Below are positions 33,865 to 62,739 of a stretch of 64,000 bases of DNA, in pieces (positions within the stretch are counted from its first letter, which is position 1; every line of letters starts with the position of its first letter). The notes under the pieces were generated by a model. The model did no database searches. It saw nothing but the letters and a program-made list of their open reading frames with translations, and had not been told where the DNA came from. The translations under genes were made by a program, and so were the position numbers. The DNA is taken from assembly GCF_057098645.1 (NCBI RefSeq), contig NZ_CM169472.1. The stretch is one strand, 5' to 3'.

Positions 33865-33990
33865 ACGCTTTTCCTTGTGGATCTCAACTCGCCAGCACCT
33901 ATCTTACATGCCGGTCCGTATCAGAGATACTTTTTGAGTGGCTTTGCCGGTGATTAAAAATCAAGGAGGGTGTAACGACAAGTTGCAGGC

Positions 33991-34016
33991 ACAAAAAAAC
34001 CACCCGAAGGTGGTTT
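33991..34016 (-). terminator. rho-independent terminator at the original leuZ 3-prime flank
   Basis: aaaaaaaccaccc gaa ggtggttt hairpin; left copy of the repeat. Confidence 0.6.
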
Positions 34017-34059
34017 CACGACACTGCTTATTGCTTTGATTTTATTCTTATCTTTCCCA

Positions 34060-34115
34060 TGGTACCCGGAGCGGGACTTGAACCCGCACAGCGCGAACGC
34101 CGAGGGATTTTAAAT
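34060..34115 (-). other. tRNA-Leu 3-prime fragment (integration remnant)
   Basis: tggtacccggagcgggacttgaacccgcacagcgcgaacgccgagggattttaaat equals the 3-prime part of leuZ; 5-prime part replaced by island sequence. Confidence 0.85.
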
Positions 34116-34462: not shown

Positions 34463-36334
34463 TTACAGCGTAAATTCGTTTCCGGGTCCAGTGCCCAGGT
34501 TATTTACTATATAAGCATCTATTCTCTGATCATTAAATCGCCAGCAGTCAATGGCAAGATCCATCAGCAGGCGTTGCCTTGATGTGATGCTTTCCGCAGA
34601 CCAGTCTTGATATTCATATCCATATTTCAGCTTAAAGCGATTTAATGCAGTGTTATCACCAATTGAGTACTGGGAGTGGAGTAATCGAGTCATGATGATT
34701 TCAGAGTTTAAATATTCTGTTTGTTTTTTCAAAAACCAGTCTTCACTCAAATCATTGCAGTTATTGACAGACTGGTTAATTGTACCCTCTAATAATGTTA
34801 CATTACCAAGTTTGTAGAGATAACTTGTTCGATTTACATCAGAGAACTCCCCGTTTTCAGGGGCGTTTCGTACCGTCTGAGGAAGAATATGCTCAATTTG
34901 CATCTGCTGAATAGCCTGCTGGCTCTTTTCCGGAAAACCGCAAAGATGGCGGATATGATTCTCTAATCTACCCAATACATAACGTTGGCGATACTGAGGC
35001 GTAAAATTATAGTCATTAATAATTGAGAATCGTTCTTTAAATTCATCTAAACGCTCCACAACAAAAGGTATAAGTGTTGCTGAAACAACATTTGCAACCT
35101 CTGCTTTCGTTTTCACATCCCGAAGCTTTACAGCCCATTGAGTAAAGCGTTGCTCATATGTCTTCGATTGAATAGCCATTGTATTTGTAAAGAATAAAAA
35201 GCTCTCAAGTTGAGCACCTAAGAAATCCATTACATCATCTGAACAACTAATATCCAATGCCATTAGTAAAACCAAATGCTGACGTGAGCGATATTTATTA
35301 ATATATCCAATGTTACTTACGTTTGGAAAACGGATATTTTCACGCCAGTAGGCTGCTTCATTTGTTGCATTGACCAGGTTAGCGTATCGTTCTGATAATT
35401 TTTCCAATTCTTTGACGAGGACCATAGGGCGTGTCTTATACTGCAACGACAGTTCCCCCTCAGCTGAAATGATCCATTTATATATATCATCTTCACGCAA
35501 AATCCCGTGATGATATCGTGCCATCAGAAAGTAACGTAAAAAACGAAGCGGGTTATCACTTTCGCCGCAAGACTCAAGGTTATTAGTGATGGATTTCCAT
35601 GTTGTCTTTATTGCCGAAAACTGTTCTTCTTTTATCTGACTGAAAATCAAATTTTTAACAAGATCCATAGCATTAAGGCTGGCACCACGCTGATTGATCG
35701 TTTCGAAGATCTTTAATGCGCTACTTAAGTTCTCTGATTCAATGACAACCAGCTCAACTTTTGTTAAAAAAAAGCGAGCGAAGGAGATTAATCCATTCAA
35801 GCTATCTTGCAATTGGTATTTAAGATAATCACGAATGTGATCATACGCGTCAGCCATTTTTTTTACTGAAGCTGTTTCCGCAAAGGTATTGGTTTGCCCT
35901 TCAATTAACCGCGAAATAAATCCTCGACTTTCTTCATATTGAAGATCTAGTCTAATTAGATTTTCCTCACTATTAATATCATAACTAGAGAGCCATTCCT
36001 CAATAGTTTTCAGATATTCCAGCCCTTTTTTGTCAAGTGTATCCAATCTATCTTTTAATAGATCCCGTAAGGCACACATAGTGATGACAATAGTGGTCAA
36101 CCGCTGCTGTCCGTCAATAACATCATGCTTTTCCCCATTCTTTACGATAATAACAGAACCGAGAAAATAACCATTTTGATCTTTCTGCTCTGGTTGGTAT
36201 TCATTGTCTAAATCCATGAGAAACTGTTCAACCTGATCATCAACCTTCCATACATACTCACGTTGATAATCGGGAACTAAAAAATAATAATCGCTTAATT
36301 TTGATATATTTTTTACATCGGCTTCTATTTTCAT
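34463..36334 (-). CDS. GmrSD-family type IV restriction endonuclease-like protein (DUF262 N-terminal, DUF1524 C-terminal)
   Basis: 623-aa ORF; N-terminal DGQQR motif typical of DUF262; C-terminal EHILPQ ... N-rich motif typical of DUF1524 His-Me finger. Confidence 0.65.
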   Translation of the reverse strand: MKIEADVKNISKLSDYYFLVPDYQREYVWKVDDQVEQFLMDLDNEYQPEQKDQNGYFLGSVIIVKNGEKHDVIDGQQRLTTIVITMCALRDLLKDRLDTLDKKGLEYLKTIEEWLSSYDINSEENLIRLDLQYEESRGFISRLIEGQTNTFAETASVKKMADAYDHIRDYLKYQLQDSLNGLISFARFFLTKVELVVIESENLSSALKIFETINQRGASLNAMDLVKNLIFSQIKEEQFSAIKTTWKSITNNLESCGESDNPLRFLRYFLMARYHHGILREDDIYKWIISAEGELSLQYKTRPMVLVKELEKLSERYANLVNATNEAAYWRENIRFPNVSNIGYINKYRSRQHLVLLMALDISCSDDVMDFLGAQLESFLFFTNTMAIQSKTYEQRFTQWAVKLRDVKTKAEVANVVSATLIPFVVERLDEFKERFSIINDYNFTPQYRQRYVLGRLENHIRHLCGFPEKSQQAIQQMQIEHILPQTVRNAPENGEFSDVNRTSYLYKLGNVTLLEGTINQSVNNCNDLSEDWFLKKQTEYLNSEIIMTRLLHSQYSIGDNTALNRFKLKYGYEYQDWSAESITSRQRLLMDLAIDCWRFNDQRIDAYIVNNLGTGPGNEFTL

Positions 36335-36391
36335 TTTATATCCTTACATAGCTGGATGAACACCATAGATCATACTGATCCCAGATCCAAT

Positions 36392-36901
36392 TCACAAACG
36401 AACAGGAGAGTAGACCCCTTCTACATTACAGCTATCTCCGTCATCAAAAATCAACTCTCCTGCACTATAACCATCCATGGATAAAATAGCCTTTTCATTG
36501 AGAGCCAGACTAAGGCACATTGATGTTTTTATCATATTATCTGTACCATAAATCTCATACCAGTTATCTTCTTTTTTAGAAACCTCTACCTCATACTTTC
36601 CTGAGTCAATATTAACCATGCTAAATACATTATCTACATCACATGAATCCTTGCTATCTGTAAAAATTATTTTTTTATCATAGCCATCAACCCTGAGATA
36701 TGCGTCTTCAGAATAAGCATAAACATAACAATATTTAGTATTAACAAAAGAATCCTTCCCAGTAATTTGATATAAATTACTATCTTTTCTTGTGACATTT
36801 ATTTCCCACGTATTGGCATGAACATAACCTGGAGCCAAAAACAGGGTTAATAAGAACGGTCCAATCTTGGCTTTAAAGTTTCTAACAATTTTGAAAAACA
36901 T
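36392..36901 (-). CDS. secreted protein of unknown function with two tandem Cys-containing repeat domains
   Basis: 169-aa ORF; signal peptide MFFKIVRNFKAKIGPFLLTLFLAPGYVHA; internal repeat NLYQITGKDS...CDVDNVFSMV / NWYEIYGTDN...CNVEGVYSPV. Confidence 0.55.
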   Translation of the reverse strand: MFFKIVRNFKAKIGPFLLTLFLAPGYVHANTWEINVTRKDSNLYQITGKDSFVNTKYCYVYAYSEDAYLRVDGYDKKIIFTDSKDSCDVDNVFSMVNIDSGKYEVEVSKKEDNWYEIYGTDNMIKTSMCLSLALNEKAILSMDGYSAGELIFDDGDSCNVEGVYSPVRL

Positions 36902-36952
36902 AAAACCCCTTCTTATATAGTTCTGTAATATGTTAATTTAGCTGGGCTCTTA

Positions 36953-37708
36953 CTACATATCAGCCAACAACATCCCAGCCATGCCATCCAGCCGTTTCTT
37001 GACCTTTTCCCACCCAGGCATAACCTGCCCCATCAGGCGGTAAAACTCTTCACTGTGGTTGTGCTCAGCAACATGGCATAACTCATGTAGCAAAACATAA
37101 TCGATACATTCTGAGGATGCCTTAACCAGCCATGGATTCAGGGTCAGACAGCCTTTTGCTGAACAGTTGCCCCATTGCGTTTGCATCGCCCGCAGACGTA
37201 TCGGAGGACGCTCACTGACCCAAAGGGTCTGCGGAATCAGTAAATCAAGCCTGCGCTGAAAAACATCTCTGGCACGTTCCCGATACCATTCAGCCAGCAA
37301 GGCTTTAATCTTTTCTGCCGATTTGTGTCTGACAGTCACTTCCAGACGCCCACGCAACATTTTCACTCGTTGCGGCACAGTAGCGTCTTCTGTCACTTTC
37401 AACTGATATTGCTTACCGAGATAATAATGGCTTTCTCCGCTGACATACTGACGCGGAACAATGTGTGTCTGTTGCTCCCTGAAATCACGCAGTTGCTGGT
37501 ATATCCAGCGCCCACGTTTTTTCAGCGCAGACAATACCTCGTGCTCCGGTGTTTCAGGCGGTACAGAGGCCACAACCCGGCAGTCCGGATAAACCTTGAT
37601 GAGCACCCTGCCCTTTACGACCTGACGCGGAACACACTGTACGACGATGACCTCATCACCATAGACAATGCGTAACGCTTTCATTGATGGCGATTCTTTT
37701 TCACTCAT
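36953..37708 (-). CDS. DUF45/YgjP-like zinc metallohydrolase
   Basis: 251-aa ORF with HELCHVAEHNHSEEF (HExxH...NHS); 4-nt overlap with hsdR stop. Confidence 0.6.
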   Translation of the reverse strand: MSEKESPSMKALRIVYGDEVIVVQCVPRQVVKGRVLIKVYPDCRVVASVPPETPEHEVLSALKKRGRWIYQQLRDFREQQTHIVPRQYVSGESHYYLGKQYQLKVTEDATVPQRVKMLRGRLEVTVRHKSAEKIKALLAEWYRERARDVFQRRLDLLIPQTLWVSERPPIRLRAMQTQWGNCSAKGCLTLNPWLVKASSECIDYVLLHELCHVAEHNHSEEFYRLMGQVMPGWEKVKKRLDGMAGMLLADM

Positions 37709-40700
37709 GATTTCATCAAACCAACGCGCAGTATCTGGATGATGGTTTCCACAATACGGTTAACCTGATTCATTCCGGCACCAATTTCCCGGCAGGCCGT
37801 AAACAGCAGTGGTAGCAGACTTGTCTTAACGACTTTCTCAATGTCCTGGGGGTTCAGGGAGTTTTCTGCCACCGCTTTGACGATAATGTTGTCCACGTCA
37901 AAAGCCAGCTTCGTCCACTTATCCTGCACTTGAACGTCTTTTACCACAAAAACCTCAGGTAGCTCTTTTTTAAATACACCGTAATATGCCTGAGCATGCT
38001 TGTTTACCGCCAAAGCATCCGGGATATCACTGAGCTTACGGGCTTTAACCTGTTCTTCAAACTCACGGAATAAGAGGTACTGCTTAAGTGGATGGTCGAA
38101 CAGTTTTTCAGCCTCTTCGATTGCCATACGCAGGAGTCTGGAAAAGGCCTCCTGAGCATACGGATCATCACGCAGCTCCTGCTCAATCATCTTCGTCACA
38201 CGGGTTTTAATGATGTCGGTTTCATTGCGGGTTTTATTGTTATCCCACTCTTCGGGTTTTTCGCTCTTGCCCATTTTACCGACTTCATACACGCCATCCG
38301 GTTCACGAACCTCAACGCCGGTAACATGCTTATCCAGCAATTTTTTCACCTGCTCAGCGTAGTCGTCATAATTGACCTGCTCTCCACTTACCTGCATCGC
38401 CCACTGGCGAAGGCTGGACATCTGTTTTACGGTTTCTTTATAGAGATTTCGGTCTTGTTCCGTAAAGCTCTTGTCGGTGAAGAAGGTAGCGGACTGCAGT
38501 GCCACTTTCAGGCATCCGGCAAAGGCCGTTAACGCCTCGAAGAAATCATCACGGGTTTTCTGATGGATATCGACCATCTCTCCGTCACGTTCTTCCATTT
38601 TAGGCACCAGTACTGCACGTAACTGCTCAGTATCATTTTTGTTTTTAACACCGGCAAATATGGCCCACAACTGGTTATACAGATGCGGCAGACGTTTATA
38701 TTCAGAGCTCATGGCGCTGTACAGCCCGTCAATATCCTTGATGTCGTATCCTCCCTGGGTTCGGGAGGCGAGATCCTGATATTTGCCGATAGTCGTGTCC
38801 AGTTCAGCCAGAATGCCGCGATAATCAATCAGCAGGCCAAACTTTTTCAGTGGATGCAGACGGTTTACCCTTGCAATCGCCTGGATAAGGTTGTGGGACT
38901 TAAGCGGCTTGTCGATATACAGCACGGTATTCTTCGGTTCATCAAATCCGGTGAGCAGTTTATCAACGACGATCAGTAATTTGAGCTTATCATCAGTATC
39001 GAAACGACTGATGATATTGCGGGTATACACAGACTCATCCTGCATGCCGACGTTATCTTTCCACCATTTCGTCACTTCCGGCAGTTTGCTTTCATCCACC
39101 TCAGTATTCCCTTCCCGGGTATCCGGCGGGCTGATAACTACAGCTGACTCAAACAACCCGGCTTCATCAAGATACTTTTTATATTTGATGGCGGAAATCT
39201 TGCTGTCGCAGGCAAGTTGGCCTTTCAGCCCCTCATCAATATTCTTCGAGAAGTGTGTGGCGATATCGAGTGCGATCAGCCGGATGCGGTCATCTGCACT
39301 GTAGACCTCACCTTTACGGGCATATTTACGTTTAAGGTCGGCTTTTTGCGCTTCGCTTAACCCATCGGTAATACGGTCAAACCAGGCATCTATTGCCCGA
39401 TCGTTAACCTCAAGGTCGGGAATACGTTCTTCATACAGCAAAGGTGTAACGGCTTTATCTTCTACCGCTCGCTGCATGGTATAAGCGTGGACAATCGGCC
39501 CGAATTTATTGGTGGTCTTATCTTCTTTTAGCAATGGCGTACCGGTGAATGCCACAAAGGCGGCGTTCGGCAGTGCCAGTTTCATTCGCACATGGTTCTC
39601 ACCCCCCTGGCTGCGGTGTCCTTCATCAATCAGAACGATGATGTCGGGGCTGGTATTGACGCATTCAGGCAATTTTGTCGCTGAGTTAAATTTCTGGATA
39701 AGGGTAAAGATTATACGTTCTTTACCAGAGCCAATCTGCTGTGCCAGCTTCTGACCTGAGGTCGCCATCGCTTTGGCCTTATCATCCTTCCCTGCCAGTT
39801 CGCCACCAGAGACAAAAGTGCCGCTGAGCTGCCCTTCAAGGTCCACGCGGTCCGTCACCACCACAATACGACACTGCTTCAGGCTGTCATGAAGGATCAG
39901 CGCCTTGCTGAGGAATACCATGGTGTAAGATTTACCTGACCTCGTGGTATGCCAGATCACCCCACCTTCCCTGCCCCCGTCTGGTCTGCGGGTACTGATG
40001 CGTTCCAGCAGTCTTTTTATCCCGAACACCTGCTGATAGCGGGCAACAATTTTTCCGGTTTTTTTATCAAACAGGGTGAAGAAGCGGGTCATCTCCAGCA
40101 GACGTTCCGGTGAAAGCAGACTGATGAGCAGCTTATCCTGCCCGCTGACTGCCAGTTCCCCCCCATCGATTAACTGTTGATACCATTTGAGATCGACTGA
40201 AGGACGATGATCAAACAACGCATGAATTTGTTCAGTCGATAACTGATGGTTGCGCAGCGCATACATCTGCGGATCGGTAATATCTTCTTCGCGCCATGCC
40301 GCCCAGAATTTCATTGGCGTATGGCATGTACCGTAGCGCCCGTCATGACCGTTAATCGAAAGTAATAACTGGCTGTAGACAAACAGCTGCGGGATTTCAT
40401 CGTTGAACTGGTTGCGGATACTCTGGGATATCCCCTCGTCAATGGTTGGCCCTTTCTTGCCATGACCAGCCGGGCTTTTCGCTTCAATAACAGCCAGCGG
40501 GATACCATTAACAAAGCAGACAATATCCGGTCTGCGGGTTTCAACACCGCCTGACCGCAATACCGTAAATTCTTCAGTAAAATGGAACTGGTTATTTTCC
40601 GGATGTTCCCAGTCGATCAGCGCAATGGTGGGGTTGACCTTCTTGCCATCGACAAATTCGGTGACGGCGATACCGTAGAGCAGATGGTTATACATCCGTT

Positions 40701-40989
40701 CATTGGCTTTGAGCAGCCCTTCATTCAGCGCCGGAGAACAGACCTGTGATATCAGGTTATCCAGTGCTTTTTCCGATAACTGGCAGTTTTTGCCACCCGC
40801 CATAAAGGAACGCTTCGACAGCTCTTCACGCAGAACCGGACGCAGCACCACCTCATCCTGTTTATAGCCCCGGTAATCCATAATCTGTTTCGGAGATAAA
40901 AACGTCCAGCCGAGGCTGGTCAGTAACGTCAGTGCCGGGATTTTGGCGCTGTATTCTTCCTGGAATTTAGGTTGGTAGTGCTTATCCAC
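37705..40989 (-). CDS. hsdR: type I restriction enzyme R subunit
   Basis: 1094-aa ORF; N-terminal PD-(D/E)xK-like IEAK motif, SF2 helicase motifs including DEGHRS. Confidence 0.85.
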   Translation of the reverse strand: MDKHYQPKFQEEYSAKIPALTLLTSLGWTFLSPKQIMDYRGYKQDEVVLRPVLREELSKRSFMAGGKNCQLSEKALDNLISQVCSPALNEGLLKANERMYNHLLYGIAVTEFVDGKKVNPTIALIDWEHPENNQFHFTEEFTVLRSGGVETRRPDIVCFVNGIPLAVIEAKSPAGHGKKGPTIDEGISQSIRNQFNDEIPQLFVYSQLLLSINGHDGRYGTCHTPMKFWAAWREEDITDPQMYALRNHQLSTEQIHALFDHRPSVDLKWYQQLIDGGELAVSGQDKLLISLLSPERLLEMTRFFTLFDKKTGKIVARYQQVFGIKRLLERISTRRPDGGREGGVIWHTTRSGKSYTMVFLSKALILHDSLKQCRIVVVTDRVDLEGQLSGTFVSGGELAGKDDKAKAMATSGQKLAQQIGSGKERIIFTLIQKFNSATKLPECVNTSPDIIVLIDEGHRSQGGENHVRMKLALPNAAFVAFTGTPLLKEDKTTNKFGPIVHAYTMQRAVEDKAVTPLLYEERIPDLEVNDRAIDAWFDRITDGLSEAQKADLKRKYARKGEVYSADDRIRLIALDIATHFSKNIDEGLKGQLACDSKISAIKYKKYLDEAGLFESAVVISPPDTREGNTEVDESKLPEVTKWWKDNVGMQDESVYTRNIISRFDTDDKLKLLIVVDKLLTGFDEPKNTVLYIDKPLKSHNLIQAIARVNRLHPLKKFGLLIDYRGILAELDTTIGKYQDLASRTQGGYDIKDIDGLYSAMSSEYKRLPHLYNQLWAIFAGVKNKNDTEQLRAVLVPKMEERDGEMVDIHQKTRDDFFEALTAFAGCLKVALQSATFFTDKSFTEQDRNLYKETVKQMSSLRQWAMQVSGEQVNYDDYAEQVKKLLDKHVTGVEVREPDGVYEVGKMGKSEKPEEWDNNKTRNETDIIKTRVTKMIEQELRDDPYAQEAFSRLLRMAIEEAEKLFDHPLKQYLLFREFEEQVKARKLSDIPDALAVNKHAQAYYGVFKKELPEVFVVKDVQVQDKWTKLAFDVDNIIVKAVAENSLNPQDIEKVVKTSLLPLLFTACREIGAGMNQVNRIVETIIQILRVGLMKS

Positions 40990-41058
40990 CCGGTAATCCT
41001 TCTTGGCTAAGAGGTGAAACTGTATGTCCTTACGGACATACTCAAAATGAACGAAGAC

Positions 41059-42843
41059 TTATGATGAAAAGAACGGCGAGTCCCGATAAAGGCGATTGTA
41101 CTTGACCTGTTCTGTTTCGCCCTTGTTTACATTACCAAATTTCTCCTGATGCGTCGTACAGCAGGAACCACAGGATGCACAAATAAATCGTCCTTCTGAA
41201 CATTTTTCATGCAAATCCCTGGCGTCAATTATTTCGCTGCATTTGTAACCAATACAGTGATTAATGTAATGCCCGATACCAAACTGTTCGCACGAATGAC
41301 TGGCACATTTAAAGACGGTCAGGCGATACGCGGCCTGGAAAGGTTTTTTCACAAATCCTTTCGACTTTGTATCCCAGACGCTGACTTCCACACGAGCATA
41401 TTTCATATCTGGAACCATCAGCACCCCACAACTTCGGCAATGCAAGCGGGAATGTAATTCTCTGATACGATTGAAATACCCAGCCAGTTTAATTGGGAAA
41501 TCCCGCTTAGAAGGTTCGCCTGCAATCAGATAGGTCATGCCATAGTGGGCAAGCCAGTCATAAATAGTGAAGTCGATGTAATCCCGACTGAGGTCGGGTA
41601 GTACCTGCGGATCATGGCAGATTTTCGAACGACAAAGGAATTTTTTCTCTATCGTTCCGTCAGGTTGTTTTGCATTCCAGTGAAATGCCTCACAGGATAA
41701 TTTTAAATTCCGGGAACGAATTTTCAATGAGCTACACTGTGGGAACAATTTGAAAACAGAAGGATGGCTTACCGGGATTTTACCCGACAACACTCCCTGC
41801 CATATCTCATGCAGAATAATACTCAGAACGGACTGTTCATCGTTACGCCCAATCAGCGGTAACAATTTACTCAGAATAAAGTATTCAGGGTCAGAAGAAA
41901 TTTCAGTATTCGACTCAATATCATTAACAAAACTGAAATCTTTCCTGAACATCTTCTGTTTAATCAAATACTTATTGACAAAAGGACTAATCACGGAATG
42001 TTTATAAAATTGCTCTCTCGATGAGAATTTCTGCTGATAGGCATCACGGACAAATGGTTGTATATCCATTTTATTTTTCGTGAAACTACGTCGAACAAAA
42101 TTCTCTATATCATCATGCCGATGTTCAAGAATCCGCTCGCTGCTTATACAATCGTAAAATGCCAGGTAGAGAATAGCACTTATAGATATATGGCTGAGTA
42201 ATTCATTGATGATGTCCGATGTTGAAGCCCCCTGGCAATCCGTAGCCGCAGAACACCTTTTCACCCAAACAGCGAACTGATCAATGTTATTATCGATAAA
42301 TGACGAAGGCATGACTGCAGGAGATATTTGTTGTGCGGTCAAATCATCAAAATTCTTATCAGAGGCGAAAAGTGCAAACTGGTTATCGTAGTTACGTGAT
42401 TTTAAAAATAGCGGCAAGACTTTTGTAGCAGCTATATCACTGGTAACTAACCGAATTATAGCCCTTTCGCCAAAGGACTGAGTGAGAAAATTAATAACGC
42501 AGTCACGATAACGCCAACGAGCGAAATCAACGCCCTCCTCAATAATAGCCCGGAGATATTCAATAAGGAGCTCAGCCGTCTCCTCATCTGTTTTATCAAG
42601 AATGTGAACATTAAAAGCCGTAGGCTTACCATTTTTACCTGTACCTTCCCTGAACAGCACCGGTGCATTGTCTGCGGGTGTATAGTTCCGGCTTATCTCA
42701 TTCTTATGAAAAAACAGCTCATTACCATTCTCTGATAAGAGAAAGCCAAAGTTATTCTCCCGATCCGTTTTGCTGTTGTAGCCTCCGAACCAGAGAACAT
42801 TTCCCATGTACCACCGGGAACGATCCAGATTGTTCACTGCCAT
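41059..42843 (-). CDS. protein of unknown function: N-terminal cold-shock-like domain, C-terminal Cys/His-rich putative zinc-ribbon region
   Basis: Start chosen at MAVNNLDR with RBS GAAGGGGG 7 nt upstream (594 aa); WFGGYNSKTDRENNFGFL resembles the CSD KWFN..KGFGFI core; C-terminal clusters CRSCG, CASHSC, CASCGSCC. Confidence 0.55.
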   Translation of the reverse strand: MAVNNLDRSRWYMGNVLWFGGYNSKTDRENNFGFLLSENGNELFFHKNEISRNYTPADNAPVLFREGTGKNGKPTAFNVHILDKTDEETAELLIEYLRAIIEEGVDFARWRYRDCVINFLTQSFGERAIIRLVTSDIAATKVLPLFLKSRNYDNQFALFASDKNFDDLTAQQISPAVMPSSFIDNNIDQFAVWVKRCSAATDCQGASTSDIINELLSHISISAILYLAFYDCISSERILEHRHDDIENFVRRSFTKNKMDIQPFVRDAYQQKFSSREQFYKHSVISPFVNKYLIKQKMFRKDFSFVNDIESNTEISSDPEYFILSKLLPLIGRNDEQSVLSIILHEIWQGVLSGKIPVSHPSVFKLFPQCSSLKIRSRNLKLSCEAFHWNAKQPDGTIEKKFLCRSKICHDPQVLPDLSRDYIDFTIYDWLAHYGMTYLIAGEPSKRDFPIKLAGYFNRIRELHSRLHCRSCGVLMVPDMKYARVEVSVWDTKSKGFVKKPFQAAYRLTVFKCASHSCEQFGIGHYINHCIGYKCSEIIDARDLHEKCSEGRFICASCGSCCTTHQEKFGNVNKGETEQVKYNRLYRDSPFFSS

Positions 42844-42865
42844 GAGCAAGCCCCCTTCCGCTTTG

Positions 42866-43549
42866 TCAGTGCAGGCAGCACTTTTTAAATTTTTTACCAC
42901 TGCCACACTGACACGGGTCATTACGACCGGGCAGTTTTTCTGCCCCCTTCACGGGAACAGGCCGGGATGATGCCTCTGACATTCTCACCGACAACCAGTG
43001 CTGGTAAAGCGCCAGTGCCGCAGGCTGAATGAGAGTAATACTCTGTTCAAATTGAACAGGTGACATTTTCTCAACCACTGGGAAGTTCTTTTCAATACCA
43101 TGAAGGGCTATCGCCTCCAGCGAGGGACGTAAGGCCTCTGGCAAGGCTGACCAGTCATCCAGAGACCGGCCTTTCATATACCCGAAACACCACTCTTCGA
43201 CGATGGTATATGTCTTCCCCTTCACCTCACGTCCATTGAAAATCGGTTCAAACTGTTCAGGGGCCTCATACAGGCAGCCAGCGATATCGTTCATATGCTG
43301 AAAACACAGCCCCACAAAACGCGTCATCTCTTTTTCAGTGGTCCAGCGAGGGTGGTAATCACCTCGCCCCCAGATAGCACTGAGCCAGGTATTAGGGGAA
43401 ATCGTATTCGGGCCAGAGACAATCGCCGTCAGAAAGCCATCCAGCTCAGAGAAACAGAGCACAGAGTCATCATTGCCGTATTTCATCAACACCTCTTCCA
43501 GCCAGTCGATTTCCCGGTCAATCAGCGGCCCGCTTTTCGTCAGTTTCAT
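42866..43549 (-). CDS. YecA-like UPF0149 protein with SEC-C motif (paralogue of chromosomal yecA)
   Basis: 227-aa ORF colinear with YecA at roughly 60 percent identity by eye, ends [24 protein letters not shown] overlap with hsdS stop; stop 22 nt before next gene. Confidence 0.7.
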   Translation of the reverse strand: MKLTKSGPLIDREIDWLEEVLMKYGNDDSVLCFSELDGFLTAIVSGPNTISPNTWLSAIWGRGDYHPRWTTEKEMTRFVGLCFQHMNDIAGCLYEAPEQFEPIFNGREVKGKTYTIVEEWCFGYMKGRSLDDWSALPEALRPSLEAIALHGIEKNFPVVEKMSPVQFEQSITLIQPAALALYQHWLSVRMSEASSRPVPVKGAEKLPGRNDPCQCGSGKKFKKCCLH

Positions 43550-44188
43550 TCGGCAACCGCCTCATCGACCTTAACACGACGTTTGCCAGTCAGTAGCTGT
43601 TGCATCAGGGCTTTTTTCTCGTCTTTCAGGCAGGCGAGTTTTTTCTCCAGCGTGGAGATTTCAGCGTCGGCAGCGGAAAGGACGGCGGCGATTTTTTGTT
43701 GTTCTTTGATATCTAATGGCAACCTAAAGTCTTTCTCTTTAAGTTCTCGCATATGTCTGCTGTAACCTAAATTCGGAATATCTGTATTTGAAAGAAGATA
43801 GTATCCAAGTTTTGGTTCAAGTATTTTGCTAGTTTTTATTACTTGCGTTCCATCAGCACCGGGACAAAACACAAACTCAATCCATTTGACGCATCTTGTA
43901 TGATCGCCAAAAACAATCACAGGCACGTCCGAATAAACCTCTAAATTATTACAGTACCCAGCAATTCGACTTTGCCCTTGATCGATTATAGGGATGGAAC
44001 CTGACTGTAAATAATCGGAAGATTTGACTTGCGCCGATTTTTTATTTGCAACAATGAAAGCATTATCAAACGTTAAATATACCCACTCCCCATTAAACCT
44101 CCCCCCATTCTCATCCAGCAAGCGTTTTTGTCCGGTAAGCAATTGCTGCATCAGGGCTTTTTTCTGTTGCTGGCTGTTGGTGAGAAGC

Positions 44189-45245
44189 GGCTTTGTTGAA
44201 TAAATCAGATTTCGGGTAAGTCTCCCCCGTAGCGGGTTGTGTTTTCAGGCAATACGCACGCTTTCAGGCATACCTGCTTTCGTCATTTTGTTCAGCGCTC
44301 GTACCAGGGCCATAGCCTCCGCAACCTGACCATCGTAGTCACGCAGCGTCAGTGAACCCCCGAACAGCTGTTTTACCCGGTACATCGCCGTTTCCGCTAT
44401 CGAGCGACGGTTGTAATCTGTTGTCCATTTCCACCGCGCATTACTCCCGGTCATTCGCTGATTAGCCACTGCACGGTTACGGTCTGCATATTCACCGGGC
44501 CAGTAGCCCGCACCTTTTCGGGGAGGGATAAGCGCGCTGATTTTCTTACGCCGCAGTTCATCGTGACATAGCCGGGTATCGTAAGCGCCATCGGCGGCGG
44601 CTGACCTGATTTTCCGGTGGGTTTGCCGGATTAACCCGGGGAAGGCCTCTGAGTCCGTAACGTTGTTCAGCGACAGGTCTGCACAGATGATTTCATGTGT
44701 TTTACTGTCAACGGCGAGATGCAGCTTACGCCAGATACGGCGGCGTTCCTGGCCATGCTTTTTGACTTTCCACTCGCCTTCACCGAAGACCTTCAGCCCG
44801 GTGGAATCAATCACCAGATGTGCGATTTCACCCCGGGTGGGCGTTTTGAAACTGACATTAACCGACTTTGCCCGCCTGCTGACACAGCTGTAATCCGGGC
44901 AGCGTAGCGGAACGTTCATCAGAGAAAAAATGGAATCAATAAAGCCCTGCGCAGCGCGCAGGGTCAGCCTGAATACGCGTTTAATGACCAGCACAGTCGT
45001 GATGGCAAGGTCAGAATAGCGCTGAGGTCTGCCTCGTGAAGAAGGTGTTGCTGACTCATACCAGGCCTGAATAGCTTCATCATCCAGCCAGAAAGTTATG
45101 GAGCCACGGTTGATGAGGGCTTTATTGTAGGTGGGCCAGTTGGTGATTTTGAACTTTTGCTTTGCCACGGAACGGTCTGCGTTGTCGGGAAGATGCGTGA
45201 TCTGATCCTTCAACTCAGCAAAAGTTCGATTTATTCAACAAAGCC
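44189..45245 (-). mobile_element. IS903-like element (IS5 family), copy 1, 1057 bp
   Basis: Terminal inverted repeats GGCTTTGTTGAATAAATC; 9-bp target duplication GTGAGAAGC at 44180-44188 and 45246-45254. Confidence 0.9.
44245..45213 (-). CDS. IS903-like transposase
   Basis: 322-aa ORF; recognised by eye as IS903/IS102-type transposase. Confidence 0.85.
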   Translation of the reverse strand: MKDQITHLPDNADRSVAKQKFKITNWPTYNKALINRGSITFWLDDEAIQAWYESATPSSRGRPQRYSDLAITTVLVIKRVFRLTLRAAQGFIDSIFSLMNVPLRCPDYSCVSRRAKSVNVSFKTPTRGEIAHLVIDSTGLKVFGEGEWKVKKHGQERRRIWRKLHLAVDSKTHEIICADLSLNNVTDSEAFPGLIRQTHRKIRSAAADGAYDTRLCHDELRRKKISALIPPRKGAGYWPGEYADRNRAVANQRMTGSNARWKWTTDYNRRSIAETAMYRVKQLFGGSLTLRDYDGQVAEAMALVRALNKMTKAGMPESVRIA

Positions 45246-45815
45246 GTGAGAAGCTTTTCCGTCACCGAAATCGCCTCATCCCAGGTTGACAGAATTTTAA
45301 CGATTCTCTTTTGTTCAGACAGTGGGGGGATATTAAATGGCCACTTAAACCAACTATCTAACTTAAAAATCATTTTCTCTATGTGCACACCAATGCTAGA
45401 GTGGAAGCAGGTTTGCTGGAAATATAGAGACTCCGATAGAAATTCCATATAAGGAAGATAAAAACCGGACTTCCCTGTAAGCACACAATATTCATTCGAT
45501 ACAATTGAGCCAGAAAGTTCTTTAGGTACAAGACCGCAAGCACCGTGCACAATTTGTCGTTTTGATATGAGAAAGTCGCCTTCTTTAATATAGAATTGAC
45601 TTTTTACGGAGATATCTTTTCCTTTAAGATGCTCACGTCTTATTACGCCACCTCTGGAGCGCTTTACTGTAACTAAGTCATACTCTTGATTATCTTGTAT
45701 ATATGCCTTTCTTGCCTCTATATTTAAGCACTTTTCTAATGATAACTTTTGCCATCCTGTAGGTAGCATTCCAAGGATCGGTTTTCCAGCTTTAACGCTC
45801 ACTGGGTAAAGCGAA

Positions 45816-47339
45816 TCACGAGCCATAACCCAACTCCTTCAAATACCCTGCCATCTCAACTTCCAGCTTCGCCAGTTCCACCTTCAGTTGCTCACGCTCT
45901 GCTCGCACCGCCACCAGGTCAATCTCATCCTCTTCTTCAAAGGTATCGACATAGCGCGGAATATTGAGGTTGTAATCGTTGTCCTGAATTTCCTTCAGGC
46001 TGGCAAGATAGGCGTATTTCTCGACGTTATCGCCATCACGGTAGGTCTTGACGATTTTCTTAATGTTTTCTTCGCTAAGCTGGTTCTGGTTTTTACCTGC
46101 CTTGAATTCACGGCTGGCATCGATAAACAGCACCTTGTCATCAACTTTCTACTTTTTGAAAATCAGAATCGCAGCCGGAATCCCCGTACCGTAGAACAGT
46201 TTTTCCGGCAGACCAATTACCGCATCCAGCAAATTTTCGTCGATCAGTTTCTGGCGAATTTTACCTTCGCTGGAGCCACGGAAAAGCACACCGTGTGGCA
46301 CAACTACGCCCATACGGCCAGTTCCCGGTTTCAGGGTTTCGATCATATGCGAGATAAAAGCGTAATCTCCTTTAGTCTTCGGCGGTACACCGCGACGAAA
46401 ACGGCCAAACTTATCGTTCTCGGCCTCGTCATGGCCCCACTTATCGAGGCTGAACGGTGGGTTAGCGGTCACGATATCAAACAGCATCAGGTCGCCATTT
46501 TTATCGAGCAGCTTCGGGTTACGAATGGTATCGCCCCACTCGATTTTATGGTTGTCTTCCCCGTGCAGGAACATATTCATTTTCGCCAGCGACCACGTAG
46601 AACCGATCGCTTCCTGACCGAACAAGGCATAGTTACGACTATCATGCCCGGAGACAATTTTACGCCCACACTTCATCAATAATGAACCGGAACCACAGGC
46701 TGGATCGCAGATGGTATCACCCGGTTGCGGATCGAGCAGTTCTGCAATCAGGTCCGAAACTTCCGGCGGGGTATAGAACTCCCCGGCTTTCTGCCCACCG
46801 CTGGCGGCAAAGTTTTTGATCAGGTATTCGTAAGCATTGCCGATAACGTCCAGCGTACCGACACGACTCGGCTTCAGGTTGAGATCTTCACCGGCGAAGT
46901 CTTCCAGTAGCTGACGCAGTATGGTGTTTTTCTGTTTTTCTTCGCCAAGACGATCGGTGTTAAACGAAATATCCTGGAACACGCTTTTCCCGGCATCTTT
47001 CAGTTTGGTTCCGTTGGCTTCTTCGATTGCATGCAGAGCCTGATCGATACGCTCACCGTTACCCAGCTCATGGCGGCGTTCGTACAGCGCATAAAAGCTG
47101 GCACTTTTTGGCAGTACAAAACGCTCGTTGGCCATCATCGCTTCAATCAGTTCCGGCGCATCGCCATACTGTTCTTTGTATTCGTCATAGTGATCCTGCC
47201 AGACATCTGAAATGTACTTGAGGAACAGCATGGTAAGGATAAAGTCTTTATAGGTATCAGCACTGATGGTGCCACGGAACGTATCACACGCGGCCCACAG
47301 GGCTTTGTTGATCGTGTCCTGACTGATTTTGTCGTTCAT
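45816..47339 (-). pseudogene. hsdM: type I R-M methyltransferase HsdM with in-frame amber codon at 46149-46151
   Basis: 396-codon ORF with N6-adenine MTase motifs (DPACGSG, NPPF) stops at ...AAILIFKK TAG, then continues in frame KVDDKVLFIDAS... for 105 more codons; overlaps hsdS start. Confidence 0.8.
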
Positions 47340-51608: not shown

Positions 51609-51786
51609 GAACACGGAAAATAACGCTAATAATGCACTGAACATTCTTCCCGAATCAGCAAGCACAGCTGTAGACAACGATGAAAAATATCTGTCCTTTG
51701 CATTAGTTCTCGCTATCACGATTATGGGCAACTGAACCGCCCCGGGAATCCTGGAGACTAAACTTCCTGAGAAAGAGGTAAACAGG

Positions 51787-52113
51787 ATGACTAAAAATAC
51801 TCGTTTTTCCCCTGAAGTCCGTCAACGGGCAGTCCGTATGGTTCTGGAAAGTCAGGGCGAATATGACTCACAATGGGCGACAATTTGTTCCATTGCTCCA
51901 AAGATTGGCTGTACGCCGGAGACTCTGCGTGTCTGGGTTCGCCAGCATGAGCGGGATACCGGGGGCGGTGATGGAGGGCTCACCACCGCTGAACGTCAGC
52001 GTCTGAAAGAGCTGGAGCGTGAAAATCGTGAACTGCGCCGCAGTAACGATATCCTTCGCCAGGCTTCCGCTTATTTTGCGAAGGCGGAGTTCGACCGCCT
52101 CTGGAAAAAATGA
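51787..52113 (+). CDS. IS629 OrfA (transposase N-terminal HTH part)
   Basis: 108-aa [22 protein letters not shown]... Confidence 0.85.
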
Positions 52114-53000
52114 TGCCACTGCTGGATAAGCTGCGTGAGCAGTACGGGGTCGGACCGCTATGCAGCGAACTGCATATTGCCCCGTCAACGTATTACCACT
52201 GTCAGCAACAGCGACATCATCCGGATAAACGCAGTGCCCGTGCGCAGCGCGATGACTGGCTGAAGAAAGAGATACAGCGCGTATACGATGAAAATCACAA
52301 GGTATACGGTGTGCGTAAAGTCTGGCGTCAGTTGTTACGGGAAGGTATCAGAGTGGCCAGATGCACTGTGGCACGTCTCATGGCGGTTATGGGACTTGCC
52401 GGTGTTCTCCGGGGTAAAAAGGTCCGTACGACCATCAGCCGGAAAGCCGTTGCCGCAGGCGACCGCGTAAACCGTCAGTTCGTGGCAGAACGACCTGACC
52501 AGCTGTGGGTGGCTGATTTTACTTACGTCAGCACATGGCAGGGCTTCGTCTATGTGGCGTTCATCATTGATGTGTTTGCCGGATACATTGTGGGGTGGCG
52601 GGTCTCATCGTCCATGGAGACGACATTCGTGCTGGATGCACTGGAGCAGGCGTTATGGGCCCGTCGACCGTCCGGCACGGTCCATCACAGTGATAAAGGT
52701 TCTCAGTATGTATCGCTGGCCTACACACAGCGGCTTAAGGAAGCCGGATTACTGGCATCAACAGGAAGTACAGGCGACTCGTATGACAACGCGATGGCGG
52801 AGAGCATCAATGGTCTTTACAAAGCGGAGGTAATACACCGTAAGAGCTGGAAAAACCGTGCAGAAGTGGAACTGGCCACACTCACGTGGGTGGACTGGTA
52901 TAACAATCGACGATTGCTGGAAAGGCTGGGCCATACTCCTCCGGCAGAAGCAGAAAAAGCTTATTATGCTTCCATCGGAAACGATGATCTGGCAGCCTGA
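52110..53000 (+). CDS. IS629 OrfB (transposase catalytic part, DDE)
   Basis: 296-aa ORF overlapping orfA. Confidence 0.85.
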
Positions 53001-53662
53001 GTTCACAGATAAAACACTCTCCAGGAAACCCGGGGCGGTTCAAACTTAGTAAAGCTCATCGGCACAGATGGCTTCATACTTTATACCTACACCCTGCAGG
53101 ACACGGCTACTGCTCGTGCTGTTTTTAATGAATTAGCCAGGCGTCTCAAAAATTTCAATCGTCAGGAGGAGGTCTACACCACCGATTCCCTCACCTTTCG
53201 AATGAAATACATTTACGGTGTTACCCTGTTCGAACATGATAGTAAATCTATCCTTAACCTTTTTGATAAGAAGGGTTATCCAGTATTGAGTGAATCAGGA
53301 GAACCCGGTTCTCTTGATGATATGTATCTTGACATTCAAGCCCGATTACATGGCGGCTACGCCTCAAAAAAGTTTCTTCATTTACATGAACATTGTCTGT
53401 TATCTGCACACGTTACCCCGTCTGTGGAAAAGACGCAACGTGGTATCCTGATTAAAGCAGGCAGGAAACTCGTTTCCTTTATCTATGCAGATAATGAATC
53501 TCGCAAAAATGATATTTTCAAAGCTGTAGTAGACGTCATTAAATCCTGATTCATTATGCCGGGTGCGTATTCCGCTCTATTCGATCACGGATTGGCATCG
53601 AAGTCCGATCAGCGATTCGCATCCATTCGATCAACCGGGAACTTAACTTTTTCTACCGCTTT

Positions 53663-54421
53663 TTAACGCGTTTTTTCGCTGCTTTCCACTACCGGGGGAT
53701 TTTTCCTCAGTGACTCTCCCTGAAGGACCACTCGGTGTGAGTTATGTACCAGTCTGTCCAGGATGGCATCTGCTGTTGTTGGGTTCTCCATCAGACCATG
53801 CCATTTATCTACCGGGAACTGGCTTACCACTATCGTGCTGCTTTGTCCGTAACGATCCTCTATGAGCTCCAGAAGGTCATTACACTGGGCGTTACTTAAC
53901 TGTTCCAGCCCCAGATCGTCCAGGATTAGAACCTGTATTTTTTGCAACTGTTTCAGATATTTCAGCCAGCTGCCATCAACACGTCCCTGAGCCAGTTGTT
54001 CCAGTAATCGCCCGGTTCTACAGTACCGGACGCTGTGTTTCTGTCGACATGCCTGTTCGCCCAGCGCATTGGCTATCCAGCTCTTGCCACATCCTGTCGG
54101 ACCGGTTATCAGCAGGTTTTTCCTGTGGGTTATGTAGTGGCCGTTCAGCAGTTCTCTCATCTGTTCAGCCCGCAGACCTCTTGAGGCCGGATAGCGCAGC
54201 CCTTCCGGTGTTGCCTGGTATTTCAGGCCGGCATTTTTTCTCAACCGTGCCACACGGCTGTTTTCCCTGCTCAGAAGCTCGTCATCAACCAGCAGCGTCA
54301 GCCTTTCCTCGAACGACAGTTCGTCGTAGGTCTGAGGCGTTTCCCGCTGCCGTATCAGGCTCCCGGCCATCGCCGGGAGTTTCAGTTGGGTCAGTTTGTT
54401 TAACAGGTTATCACTCATACT
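53663..54421 (-). CDS. istB: IS21-family IstB ATP-binding helper protein
   Basis: Start at MSDNLLNKL; Walker A GPTGCGKS. Confidence 0.75.
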   Translation of the reverse strand, partial: SMSDNLLNKLTQLKLPAMAGSLIRQRETPQTYDELSFEERLTLLVDDELLSRENSRVARLRKNAGLKYQATPEGLRYPASRGLRAEQMRELLNGHYITHRKNLLITGPTGCGKSWIANALGEQACRQKHSVRYCRTGRLLEQLAQGRVDGSWLKYLKQLQKIQVLILDDLGLEQLSNAQCNDLLELIEDRYGQSSTIVVSQFPVDKWHGLMENPTTADAILDRLVHNSHRVVLQGESLRKNPPVVESSEKTR

Positions 54422-54434
54422 GTTGTTCCTTCTG

Positions 54435-55970: not shown

Positions 55971-56594
55971 AGTGCTCCTGGATTTTCTCTTTCTGGACAT
56001 TGACGTCTCCACTGGTTTAAACACGGCAATGGAGACTGTGGTGAAAAGAGTTAATTCCCGGAGTGACTGGCAGGATGCCAATCAATGATCGGAAGCATGC
56101 CAAATCGTGATCGATTGTGATGCCAAACTGTGATCGGAGATGGATGCCAAATCATGATCGATTCGAATGCCAAACTGCGATCGATTCAGATGCCATTTTG
56201 CAGCCGGGGGGGACGAACTCCCGGCATTTTTTCGGAGTTAACTATGAGCAATAATTTGCAGGACATCCTCGCTGCCGCATCGGGGTATCAGTCCGTGACT
56301 TCAGAGCCAGCGCTCAATCTTAAAAGACCTAAAACGCTTGATGATTATCCTGTGATACCACCTGCATCAAAAAAAGTATCTGTTATTTCAAGTGACCTGA
56401 CACTCCATATCGGTTTTGATACCGAATATGTTTTCAATCCTGAAACACAACAGAATGATATTCTGTCATATCAGAGTTATGTTGTCTTACCCGATAATAC
56501 AGGTATATCGAACATTATCTATCCACCTGACTCACAGAAAAAATCCCGGCTGTCTTTTAAGAACTTTCTCTGTCAAACGATTATGGATTTGCCC

Positions 56595-57500: not shown

Positions 57501-57823
57501 TTTTTTGCCCGTCCATATTCAACGGCTTCTTTGAGGAGTTCATTTTCCATCGTTTTCTTGCCGAGCAGGCGCTGGAGTTCTTTAATCTGCTTCATGGCGG
57601 CAGCAAGTTCAGAGGCAGGAACAACCTGTTCTCCGGCGGCCACAGCAGTAAGACTTCCTTCCTGGTATTGCTTACGCCAGAGAAATAACTGGCTGGCTGC
57701 TACACCATGTTGCCGGGCAACGAGGGAGACCGTCATCCCCGGTTCAAAGCTCTGCTGAACAATTGCGATCTTTTCCTGTGTGGTACGCCGTCTGCGTTTC
57801 TCCGGCCCTAAGACATCAATCAT
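57458..57823 (-). CDS. insC: IS2 InsC
   Basis: Start at [13 protein letters not shown], 121 aa. Confidence 0.85.
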
Positions 57824-62578: not shown

Positions 62579-62708
62579 CAGGCACAAAAAAACCACCCGG
62601 AGGTGGTTTCACGACACTGCTTATTGCTTTGATTTTATTCTTATCTTTCCCATGGTACCCGGAGCGGGACTTGAACCCGCACAGCGCGAACGCCGAGGGA
62701 TTTTAAAT
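62579..62708. repeat. attR: 130-bp direct repeat (leuZ 3-prime part plus downstream flank)
   Basis: Matches 33986-34115 with 1 mismatch. Confidence 0.9.
62584..62609 (-). terminator. rho-independent terminator downstream of leuZ (copy within attR)
   Basis: aaaaaaaccaccc gga ggtggttt. Confidence 0.6.
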
Positions 62709-62739
62709 CCCTTGTGTCTACCGATTCCACCATCCGGGC
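62653..62739 (-). tRNA. leuZ: tRNA-Leu
   Basis: 87-nt sequence, reverse complement GCCCGGATGGTGGAATCGGTAGACACAAGGGATTTAAAATCCC...GGGTACCA. Confidence 0.9.

What the first reader, a model, noticed from the sequence alone, without database searches (positions are those of the whole stretch)
34463..36334. GmrSD-like DUF262/DUF1524 protein at the island edge
A 623-aa protein with the DGQQR motif and a C-terminal His-Me finger-like region is the architecture of modification-dependent type IV restriction enzymes. It lies in the same orientation as the type I genes, giving the island stacked defences.
Basis: partly seen in the sequence, partly recalled or inferred. Interest (0 to 1): 0.5.

Follow-up and report, generated by a model that had tools for sequence, protein, structure and literature searches.

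The report
GmrSD-family defence nuclease on a pipolin
The gene is a real, intact GmrSD-family anti-phage nuclease (the published "HEC-06" type) carried on a known E. coli mobile element, so it is ordinary; which DNA feature triggers it is still unknown, and the type I restriction system beside it is broken in this strain.

Summary
ORF 34463-36334 (- strand) encodes 623 aa with Pfam GmrSD_N (2.3e-36) and GmrSD_C (3.7e-20). All DUF262 motifs are present (QR, DGQQR, FxxxN), as is a beta-beta-alpha His-Me core (H482, N511, N520).

The best defence-library match is HEC-06, a validated single-gene GmrSD-like system. Identity to the tested protein is only 22%. The nearest solved structures are the phosphorothioate sensors DndI and SspE, not the hmC-dependent enzymes, so "modification-dependent type IV" is plausible but unproven.

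The exact protein (WP_000687352.1) is already listed in cluster CLS_009 of a 2025 GmrSD survey. The island is an E. coli pipolin at tRNA-Leu, and HEC-06, type I R-M and PDC-S12 are published pipolin cargo.

Orthologs (54-63% identical) sit between hsdS and hsdR in five distant bacteria and stand alone in four others, so the gene is an autonomous cassette.

"Stacked defences" does not hold in this strain. hsdM has an amber stop and hsdS is split by an IS.

Verdict: already known, low interest.

The parts
34463..36334 (-). GmrSD-family (HEC-06-type, cluster CLS_009) NTPase-nuclease gene, 623 aa, identical to WP_000687352.1
   Evidence: ORF; Pfam GmrSD_N + GmrSD_C; PADLOC HEC-06 model PDLC04157 at 1.3e-79, full length; RefSeq annotation; listed in CLS_009
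35642..36292 (-). DUF262 / ParB-like NTPase-sensor domain (residues 15-231)
   Evidence: Pfam PF03235, 2.3e-36; coordinates checked by translation
36260..36274 (-). P21-D-Y23-Q24-R25: the QR motif. It aligns with the P23/Y25/Q26 phosphorothioate-sensing patch of DndI
   Evidence: Invariant in orthologs; DndI patch described in PMC11662687; alignment to DndI; translation
36101..36115 (-). DGQQR nucleotide-hydrolysis motif (residues 74-78)
   Evidence: Invariant in the 111-sequence alignment A2; translation; equivalent mutants abolish HEC-06 and DndI defence
35693..35707 (-). FxxxN motif (F210-ETI-N214) of DUF262
   Evidence: motif definition quoted
34559..35053 (-). DUF1524 His-Me finger nuclease domain (residues 428-592)
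   Evidence: Pfam PF07510, 3.7e-20
34754..34900 (-). beta-beta-alpha-Me core: strand 479-482 ending in E481-H482, N511 before strand 512-515, helix 517-526 with N520 (also N524, N527)
   Evidence: AF2 model, pLDDT 93.5, DSSP; residues invariant or >=90% conserved; translation
36392..36901 (-). 169-aa hypothetical protein with a signal-peptide-like N-terminus and two ~60-aa Cys-containing repeats. It travels with the DUF262 gene in Enterobacteriaceae but is not a conserved partner elsewhere
   Evidence: same neighbour on a Klebsiella plasmid; absent beside orthologs; GC 33%
36953..37708 (-). YgjP-like / M48 metallopeptidase, the usual gene downstream of hsdR
   Evidence: Pfam PF01863, 3.1e-58; the same hsdR-YgjP pair occurs in the Vibrio fluvialis, V. 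cholerae, Pontiellaceae and Halorhodospira loci
37705..40989 (-). hsdR, intact (1094 aa)
   Evidence: Pfam and PADLOC REase_I
41059..43549 (-). Two genes embedded between hsdS and hsdR: a 620-aa cold-shock-domain protein and a YecA-like SEC-C protein (PADLOC candidate PDC-S12)
43546..45826 (-). hsdS split into two fragments (43546-44151 and 45215-45826) by a 1057-bp IS903-like element (44189-45245)
   Evidence: Pfam Methylase_S on both fragments and a DDE transposase between them; breakpoints against strain G1/2
45816..47339 (-). hsdM with a CAG>TAG amber at codon 397 (46149-46151)
   Evidence: Alignment to the intact G1/2 hsdM; translation
33986..34115 (.). Distal att direct repeat (130 bp, 99.2% identical to 62579-62708), containing a partial tRNA-Leu copy
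62579..62708 (.). Proximal att repeat overlapping tRNA-Leu(taa) at 62653-62739; this is the pipolin integration site

Best explanation
The gene encodes a self-sufficient, single-polypeptide GmrSD-family defence enzyme of the HEC-06 / CLS_009 type.

Proposed mechanism: the N-terminal DUF262 (ParB-like) domain binds and hydrolyses NTP through DGQQR and reads the state of bound DNA. A long helical linker transmits that state to the C-terminal DUF1524 His-Me finger (H482 as general base, N520 as metal ligand), which nicks or cuts foreign DNA.

It is cargo of an E. coli pipolin. It behaves as an autonomous cassette that repeatedly lodges inside or beside type I R-M operons, where it would cover phages that escape type I restriction.

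Shown here: family membership, intact motifs, fold, mobility and genomic linkage. Inferred: enzymatic activities and defence function, from mutagenesis of HEC-06, DndI, BrxU and TgvB.

Not determined: the trigger.
For: Domains and motifs. The high-confidence model has a beta-beta-alpha-Me core.

The full-length PADLOC HEC-06 match is 1.3e-79. HEC-06 defence is abolished by mutating the equivalent Q, R, E and H residues.

The exact accession is in CLS_009, within a survey that describes 12 of its GmrSD groups as single-gene systems; the text I could read does not say which type CLS_009 is.

Orthologs have no conserved partner gene. Five are embedded as hsdS-[X]-hsdR and four stand alone in defence islands or a P4-like element.

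The DUF262 protein is 54-63% identical across these loci, while the flanking HsdR is 25-33% and HsdM 26-39% identical. Its GC is 37.6% against 49% for hsdR.

The gene stays intact and >=99% identical in 143 E. coli genomes. These include O145:H28 and C325, where hsdMS is deleted.

The same 8-gene array occurs on Klebsiella IncFIB plasmids. HEC-06 is published as pipolin cargo.
Against: There are no functional data for this protein that I could read. Whether the CLS_009 representative restricted T-even phages appears only in figure images.

Identity to any characterised member is just 22-25%.

The nearest solved relatives, DndI and SspE, are not modification-dependent cutters. They are held off self DNA by a host mark, and the tyrosine of their sensing patch is conserved here.

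Expression is unproven. Promoter-like and terminator-like sites are no more frequent than in shuffled sequence.
Confidence: 0.8

Rival explanations
1. It senses a self mark, like DndI and SspE. The enzyme attacks any DNA lacking a host-written mark, and that mark on self DNA stimulates the NTPase and releases the enzyme. The mark would be phosphorothioate made elsewhere in the genome, or the m6A written by the type I methyltransferase it travels with.
Against: No dnd or ssp genes occur in the island or in any of the ortholog neighbourhoods read. DndI without its mark causes filamentation and growth delay. Yet this gene is intact where hsdM and hsdS are dead (this window) or deleted (O145:H28, C325). 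Four orthologs have no adjacent methyltransferase system of one consistent kind. The flanking type I subunits are far more divergent than the DUF262 protein, so there is no co-evolution with one methylase.
Confidence: 0.1
2. It is one half of a multi-gene system. The nuclease needs a partner, as TgvAB, GrwAB and GmrS1/GmrSD2 do. Here the partner would be the co-travelling 169-aa protein or the M48 peptidase.
For: Two-gene GmrSD systems are documented. The 169-aa gene shares the low GC of the DUF262 gene and is its neighbour both in E. coli and on Klebsiella plasmids.
Against: Known partners are DUF262 proteins. The 169-aa protein has no DUF262 domain and looks secreted. Orthologs in Vibrio, Chryseobacterium, Halorhodospira, Pontiellaceae, Yersinia, Atlantibacter, Variovorax and Morganella lack it. 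HEC-06 works alone.
Confidence: 0.05
3. It is a silent passenger: an intact but unexpressed or functionless gene on a decaying island.
For: The island is heavily eroded. hsdM has an amber stop, hsdS is split by an IS, and piPolB is broken by several IS insertions. No promoter signal rises above chance.
Against: The reading frame is full length with every catalytic residue intact. A good Shine-Dalgarno sequence is present. The gene is annotated intact and is >=99% identical in 143 of 144 matching genomes; only one copy is interrupted by an IS.
Confidence: 0.05

Closest known systems
HEC-06 (Payne et al., bioRxiv 10.1101/2024.01.29.577857; PADLOC models PDLC04154-04157)
   Same: A single ~560-620-aa DUF262 - helical linker - DUF1524 protein. 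The alignment is colinear end to end. DGQQR and the E-H nuclease dyad are at equivalent positions. There is a full-length HMM match at 1.3e-79. HEC-06 is found embedded in DNA-modification-based defence loci.
   Different: Only 22% identical to the tested protein. The best model here is PDLC04157, whereas the tested protein fits PDLC04154. This protein has Y23 where HEC-06 has F, and a GNxxLLExxINQxxNN helix that HEC-06 lacks. The phage range of HEC-06 could not be read from the text.
DndI (PDB 9JFL; PMC11662687) and PADLOC 'Orf5'
   Different: About 25% identity, in the N-terminal domain only. DndI is encoded beside dndBCDE-dndFGH and depends on phosphorothioate. No dnd genes lie near this gene or its orthologs.
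SspE (PDB 6JIV, 7DRS, 7DRI)
   Different: SspE is about 770 aa and is coupled to sspABCD phosphorothioation. Neither applies here.
GmrSD (Eco94/CT596) and BrxU (PDB 7P9K): classical type IV enzymes for hmC/ghmC DNA
   Same: The architecture and the three DUF262 motifs plus the His-Me finger. BrxU is likewise embedded in a modification-based system, BREX.
RloF / TgvAB / GrwAB (GmrSD-like genes embedded in type I R-M or genomic islands)
   Same: The positional theme. DUF262 genes between hsdS and hsdR have been recorded since Miller et al. and Machnicka 2015. Orthologs of this gene occupy exactly that slot.
   Different: TgvAB and GrwAB need a second DUF262 protein; none is present here. In E. 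coli the gene lies downstream of hsdR-M48, not between hsdS and hsdR.

Membership tests
GmrSD family (DUF262 + DUF1524; Pfam PF03235 + PF07510) | N-terminal DUF262/ParB-like domain above the Pfam gathering score | tested here: met
   126.3 bits against a cut-off of 33.2, residues 15-231
GmrSD family (DUF262 + DUF1524; Pfam PF03235 + PF07510) | DUF262 motifs QR, DGQQR and FxxxN | tested here: met
   Q24-R25, D74-R78 and F210-N214. Q24, R25, D74-R78 and N214 are invariant in 111 sequences and F210 is >=90% conserved
GmrSD family (DUF262 + DUF1524; Pfam PF03235 + PF07510) | C-terminal DUF1524 domain above the gathering score | tested here: met
   72.7 bits against a cut-off of 23, residues 428-592
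GmrSD family (DUF262 + DUF1524; Pfam PF03235 + PF07510) | beta-beta-alpha-Me finger with His at the end of strand 1, Asn in the loop and Asn in the helix | tested here: met
   Strand 479-482 (H482), N511, strand 512-515, helix 517-526 (N520) in the pLDDT 93.5 model; these residues are >=90% conserved
GmrSD family (DUF262 + DUF1524; Pfam PF03235 + PF07510) | Fold similarity to solved members | tested here: met
GmrSD family (DUF262 + DUF1524; Pfam PF03235 + PF07510) | NTP hydrolysis and metal-dependent DNA cleavage | not testable with these tools
   Needs purified protein
Type IV (modification-dependent) restriction enzyme | Cleaves modified DNA (hmC, ghmC, 7-deazaG and similar) but not unmodified DNA | not testable with these tools
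   Only weak, N-terminal similarity to the type IV model (4e-14). The T-even result for CLS_009 is not readable from the text
HEC-06 (PADLOC) | Full-length match to a HEC-06 profile | tested here: met
   PDLC04157 at 1.3e-79, residues 3-599 on profile positions 7-556 of 558
HEC-06 (PADLOC) | Close relationship to the experimentally validated protein | tested here: inconclusive
   22% identity with a colinear alignment; each protein fits a different best sub-model
HEC-06 (PADLOC) | A single gene is sufficient for phage defence | not testable with these tools
   Supported only indirectly, by the lack of any conserved neighbour
DndI / SspE phosphorothioate-sensing nucleases | Closest fold and conserved P-x-Y-Q sensing patch | tested here: met
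DndI / SspE phosphorothioate-sensing nucleases | Genetic linkage to dndBCDE or sspABCD modification genes | tested here: not met
   None in the annotated island, on the plasmid copy, or in nine ortholog loci
Two-gene GmrSD systems (TgvAB, GrwAB, GmrS1/GmrSD2) | An adjacent second DUF262-containing gene | tested here: not met
   The neighbours are a 169-aa protein with no DUF262 domain and the att site
Functional type I R-M next door ('stacked defences') | Intact hsdM, hsdS and hsdR | tested here: not met
   hsdM has Q397* and hsdS is interrupted by an IS; only hsdR is intact

The most novel reading that the evidence does not exclude
The DUF262 pocket of this subfamily keeps the P-x-Y-Q-R patch that DndI and SspE use to sense phosphorothioate. 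It might read a different host mark: the m6A written by whichever type I methyltransferase the cassette is embedded in. The gene would then be a portable second restriction arm that reuses the type I self mark. That could explain why orthologs sit between hsdS and hsdR in five distant lineages and are far better conserved than the R-M genes around them.
Probability: 0.05. Interest if true: 0.6.

Novelty: already known. Interest (0 to 1): 0.15.

Why it matters
It matters little beyond correct annotation. The gene should be labelled a GmrSD-family (HEC-06-type) defence nuclease on a pipolin, not a proven type IV enzyme.

Three points are useful. First, in this strain the nuclease is probably the only working part of the hsd-linked array, because hsdM and hsdS are broken. 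Second, this subfamily (CLS_009) is unusually well conserved across phyla and moves independently of its type I hosts, which makes it a convenient model for asking what non-BrxU, non-PT GmrSD enzymes sense. Third, nearly identical copies on Klebsiella IncFIB plasmids show recent exchange between pipolins and plasmids.

Tried and rejected
- A single-sequence search of PDB sequences gave only weak SspE-like hits. A profile of 111 homologs was needed to reveal DndI.
- The first AlphaFold model, from 18 close orthologs, was poor: pLDDT 69, with the nuclease region below 50. I discarded it and replaced it with a model from a deeper alignment, pLDDT 93.5.
- NCBIfam has no model for the protein.
- I tried to learn whether CLS_009 restricted T-even phages in Silas et al. 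2025 and which phages HEC-06 blocks. Both results exist only as figure images.
- The promoter and terminator scan found no more sites than shuffled controls. The transcription unit, own promoter or read-through from hsdR, is unresolved.
- I considered the 169-aa neighbour as a partner and rejected it because it is absent beside orthologs.
- I considered dnd/ssp coupling and rejected it because those genes are absent from every context examined.
- I considered functional coupling to the type I methylase and judged it unlikely, because the gene persists where hsdMS is dead or deleted and shows no co-evolution with the flanking subunits.
- The phage collection holds only distant homologs plus one at 49% identity on a 13-kb faecal contig, so this is not a typical phage gene.

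Full report
OBSERVATION. Pfam detects GmrSD_N (PF03235, the former DUF262) at residues 15-231 (2.3e-36, 126 bits against a cut-off of 33). It detects GmrSD_C (PF07510, the former DUF1524) at residues 428-592 (3.7e-20, 73 bits against 23). The three DUF262 motifs are present: Q24-R25, D74-G-Q-Q-R78 and F210-xxx-N214. The nuclease signature is E481-H482...G510-N511...N520. In an 18-ortholog alignment from several phyla (54-77% identical to the query) these residues are invariant. In a 111-sequence alignment reaching down to 22% identity they are invariant or >=90% conserved.

WHICH KIND OF GmrSD PROTEIN. In PADLOC the best models are HEC-06 (PDLC04157, 1.3e-79, end to end) and then a series named 'Orf5'. 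SspE models and the generic type IV model (4e-14, N-terminal part only) score far lower. I showed that 'Orf5' is the DndI family: the DndI sequence scores 936 bits on PDLC02701. HEC-06 is a validated single-gene defence, and its Q79A, R80A, E471A and H472A mutants lose protection. I recovered the tested HEC-06 from an E. coli genome, where it lies in a Rac prophage. It aligns colinearly with the window protein at only 22% identity and fits a different HEC-06 sub-model best. Identity to DndI is 25%, in the N-terminal domain. So this is a distinct subfamily within the HEC-06/DndI/SspE side of the family. It is well separated from the hmC/ghmC-dependent GmrSD and BrxU enzymes that gave the family its 'type IV' label.

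WHAT IS ALREADY PUBLISHED. RefSeq calls the protein WP_000687352.1, 'DUF262 domain-containing protein'. That exact accession is listed in cluster CLS_009 of the enterobacterial GmrSD survey of Silas et al. 2025. The authors synthesised a representative of each of 15 groups and tested them on T-even phages. Five new groups were active, but which ones is shown only in figures I cannot read. The association of GmrSD homologs with type I R-M loci ('RloF', between hsdS and hsdR) has been on record since 2015 and earlier.

THE ISLAND. The window is E. coli. The element lies between yecA and the leuZ-cysT-glyW tRNA cluster. It is bounded by 130-bp direct repeats, 33986-34115 and 62579-62708 (99.2% identical). 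The second repeat overlaps tRNA-Leu and the first contains a partial tRNA copy. The element carries a tyrosine recombinase and a family-B DNA polymerase. This is the structure and the insertion site of E. coli pipolins. The 2024 pipolin study already names type I R-M, PDC-S12, mza and HEC-06 as cargo exchanged between pipolins, plasmids and other elements. The DUF262 gene is the last gene before the distal att site, so 'at the island edge' is right.

IS THE DEFENCE STACKED? The gene order on the minus strand is hsdM - hsdS - YecA-like (PADLOC PDC-S12, 8.5e-98) - 620-aa cold-shock-domain protein - hsdR - YgjP/M48 peptidase - 169-aa protein - DUF262. In this window, however, hsdM carries a CAG>TAG amber at codon 397 (46149-46151). 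hsdS is split by a 1057-bp IS903-like element with a 9-bp target duplication (44189-45245). Only hsdR is intact. The array is complete in strains G1/2 and GS04 and on a Klebsiella IncFIB plasmid whose DUF262 protein is 99.7% identical. In O145:H28 strains and strain C325, hsdMS and most of hsdR are deleted, yet the DUF262 gene is untouched. The gene is present in 143-144 of 5426 complete E. coli genomes, always at >=99% identity, and is IS-interrupted in only one. The associated hsdM family is present in 450 genomes.

AUTONOMY OF THE CASSETTE. I read the neighbourhoods of nine orthologs, 54-77% identical. In Vibrio fluvialis, V. cholerae, Chryseobacterium, a Pontiellaceae bacterium and Halorhodospira, the gene lies between hsdS and hsdR, sometimes alongside other embedded genes. 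In Yersinia intermedia, Atlantibacter, Variovorax and Morganella it stands alone in defence islands or a P4-like element. No neighbour is conserved across these loci. None has dnd or ssp genes, and none has a second DUF262 gene. Across the embedded loci the DUF262 protein is 54-63% identical to the E. coli one. The flanking HsdR is only 25-33% identical, HsdM 26-39% and the M48 peptidase 30-34%. In E. coli the gene and its 169-aa neighbour have 33-38% GC against 49-50% for hsdR and M48. The gene is therefore a self-contained module that repeatedly lands in type I loci. It is not a co-evolving subunit of them.

MECHANISM. Shown: an intact NTPase-type DUF262 domain and an intact His-Me nuclease domain joined by a helical linker, in a family where equivalent mutations abolish defence. 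Inferred: NTP-gated nicking or cleavage of invading DNA by one polypeptide, probably acting as a homodimer, as BrxU, SspE and DndI do.

The trigger is undetermined. The type IV reading (hypermodified phage DNA) fits the complementarity argument for embedding in an R-M locus. It also fits the gene's harmless persistence where no methylase remains. It rests on distant relatives only.

The self-mark reading (DndI/SspE-like) is favoured by fold and by the conserved P21/Y23/Q24 patch. It is contradicted by the absence of dnd and ssp genes, and by the fact that DndI is toxic without its mark whereas this gene survives loss of hsdMS. An HEC-06-like trigger unrelated to base modification also remains open, because HEC-06's phage range was reported to differ from that of BrxU.

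My rough estimates for the trigger are: modification-dependent 0.45, other trigger 0.3, absence of a self mark 0.1. The remainder covers a partner requirement or a silent gene. These are judgements, not computed values.

VERDICT. The family and architecture are right, the 'type IV' substrate claim is unproven, and 'stacked defences' is not functional in this strain. The gene is a catalogued member of a known family on a known element type, so I score it already known and of low interest.

Noticed in passing
window 33986-62708: The whole island is an E. coli pipolin, a mobile element encoding a primer-independent family-B DNA polymerase (piPolB), integrated at tRNA-Leu between yecA and pgsA and flanked by 130-bp att repeats. 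Compared with strain G1/2, its polymerase gene and neighbouring region are broken by at least four insertions: about 51734-53042, 53564-56202, 56584-57914 (IS2-like) and 60710-61765 (IS903-like).
   Followed up: partly
window 45816-47339 and 43546-45826: The type I R-M system is inactivated twice. hsdM has an amber stop at codon 397 (46149-46151). hsdS is split by a 1057-bp IS903-like element (44189-45245) with a 9-bp target duplication. hsdR is still intact.
   Followed up: yes
window 41059-43549: Two extra genes are embedded between hsdS and hsdR. One is a YecA-like SEC-C protein matching PADLOC candidate PDC-S12 (8.5e-98), a paralogue of the chromosomal yecA that lies just outside the island. 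The other is a 620-aa protein with a weak cold-shock domain and no defence-library match. Some island variants (strain GS04) lack the cold-shock-domain gene.
   Followed up: partly
window 36392-36901: A 169-aa ORF with a signal-peptide-like N-terminus and two ~60-aa repeats, each with two cysteines; GC is 33%. It has only weak similarity to Leptospira LIC_11826-type proteins. It sits between M48 and the DUF262 gene in E. coli and on Klebsiella plasmids, but not beside orthologs elsewhere. Its function is unknown.
   Followed up: partly
L007, L009, L013, L014 compared with window 34463-47339: The DUF262 protein is 54-63% identical between E. coli and Vibrio, Chryseobacterium, Pontiellaceae and Halorhodospira. 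The type I subunits flanking it are only 25-39% identical, and HsdM is 780-940 aa there against 507 aa here. The cassette is much better conserved than its hosts.
   Followed up: yes
L016 (Klebsiella pneumoniae IncFIB plasmid NZ_CP045662.1): The same 8-gene array (hsdM-hsdS-YecA-CSD-hsdR-M48-169aa-DUF262), with a 99.7% identical DUF262 protein, lies on large Klebsiella plasmids next to IS21 and IS5 elements. Sixteen plasmid records carry copies at >=99% identity.
   Followed up: partly
L004:9001-10683 (E. coli S3): The experimentally validated HEC-06 gene lies inside a Rac-type prophage, between sieB/ydaF and a TPR protein. It occurs in 30 of 5426 E. coli genomes.
   Followed up: no
L017 (Atlantibacter subterranea) and L018 (Vibrio cholerae): In Atlantibacter the ortholog follows a NERD-UvrD helicase gene and lies near a ScoMcrA-like sulfur-binding-domain HNH gene. 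In V. cholerae it shares the hsdS-hsdR gap with an AAA_15/AAA_21 ATPase gene and a 230-aa gene.
   Followed up: no
L003:1-2930 (E. coli G1/2): In strain G1/2 a second element carrying an Mza anti-phage system and a recombinase fragment is inserted in tandem, just beyond the att site next to the DUF262 gene. This att site therefore acts as a stacking point for defence elements.
   Followed up: no
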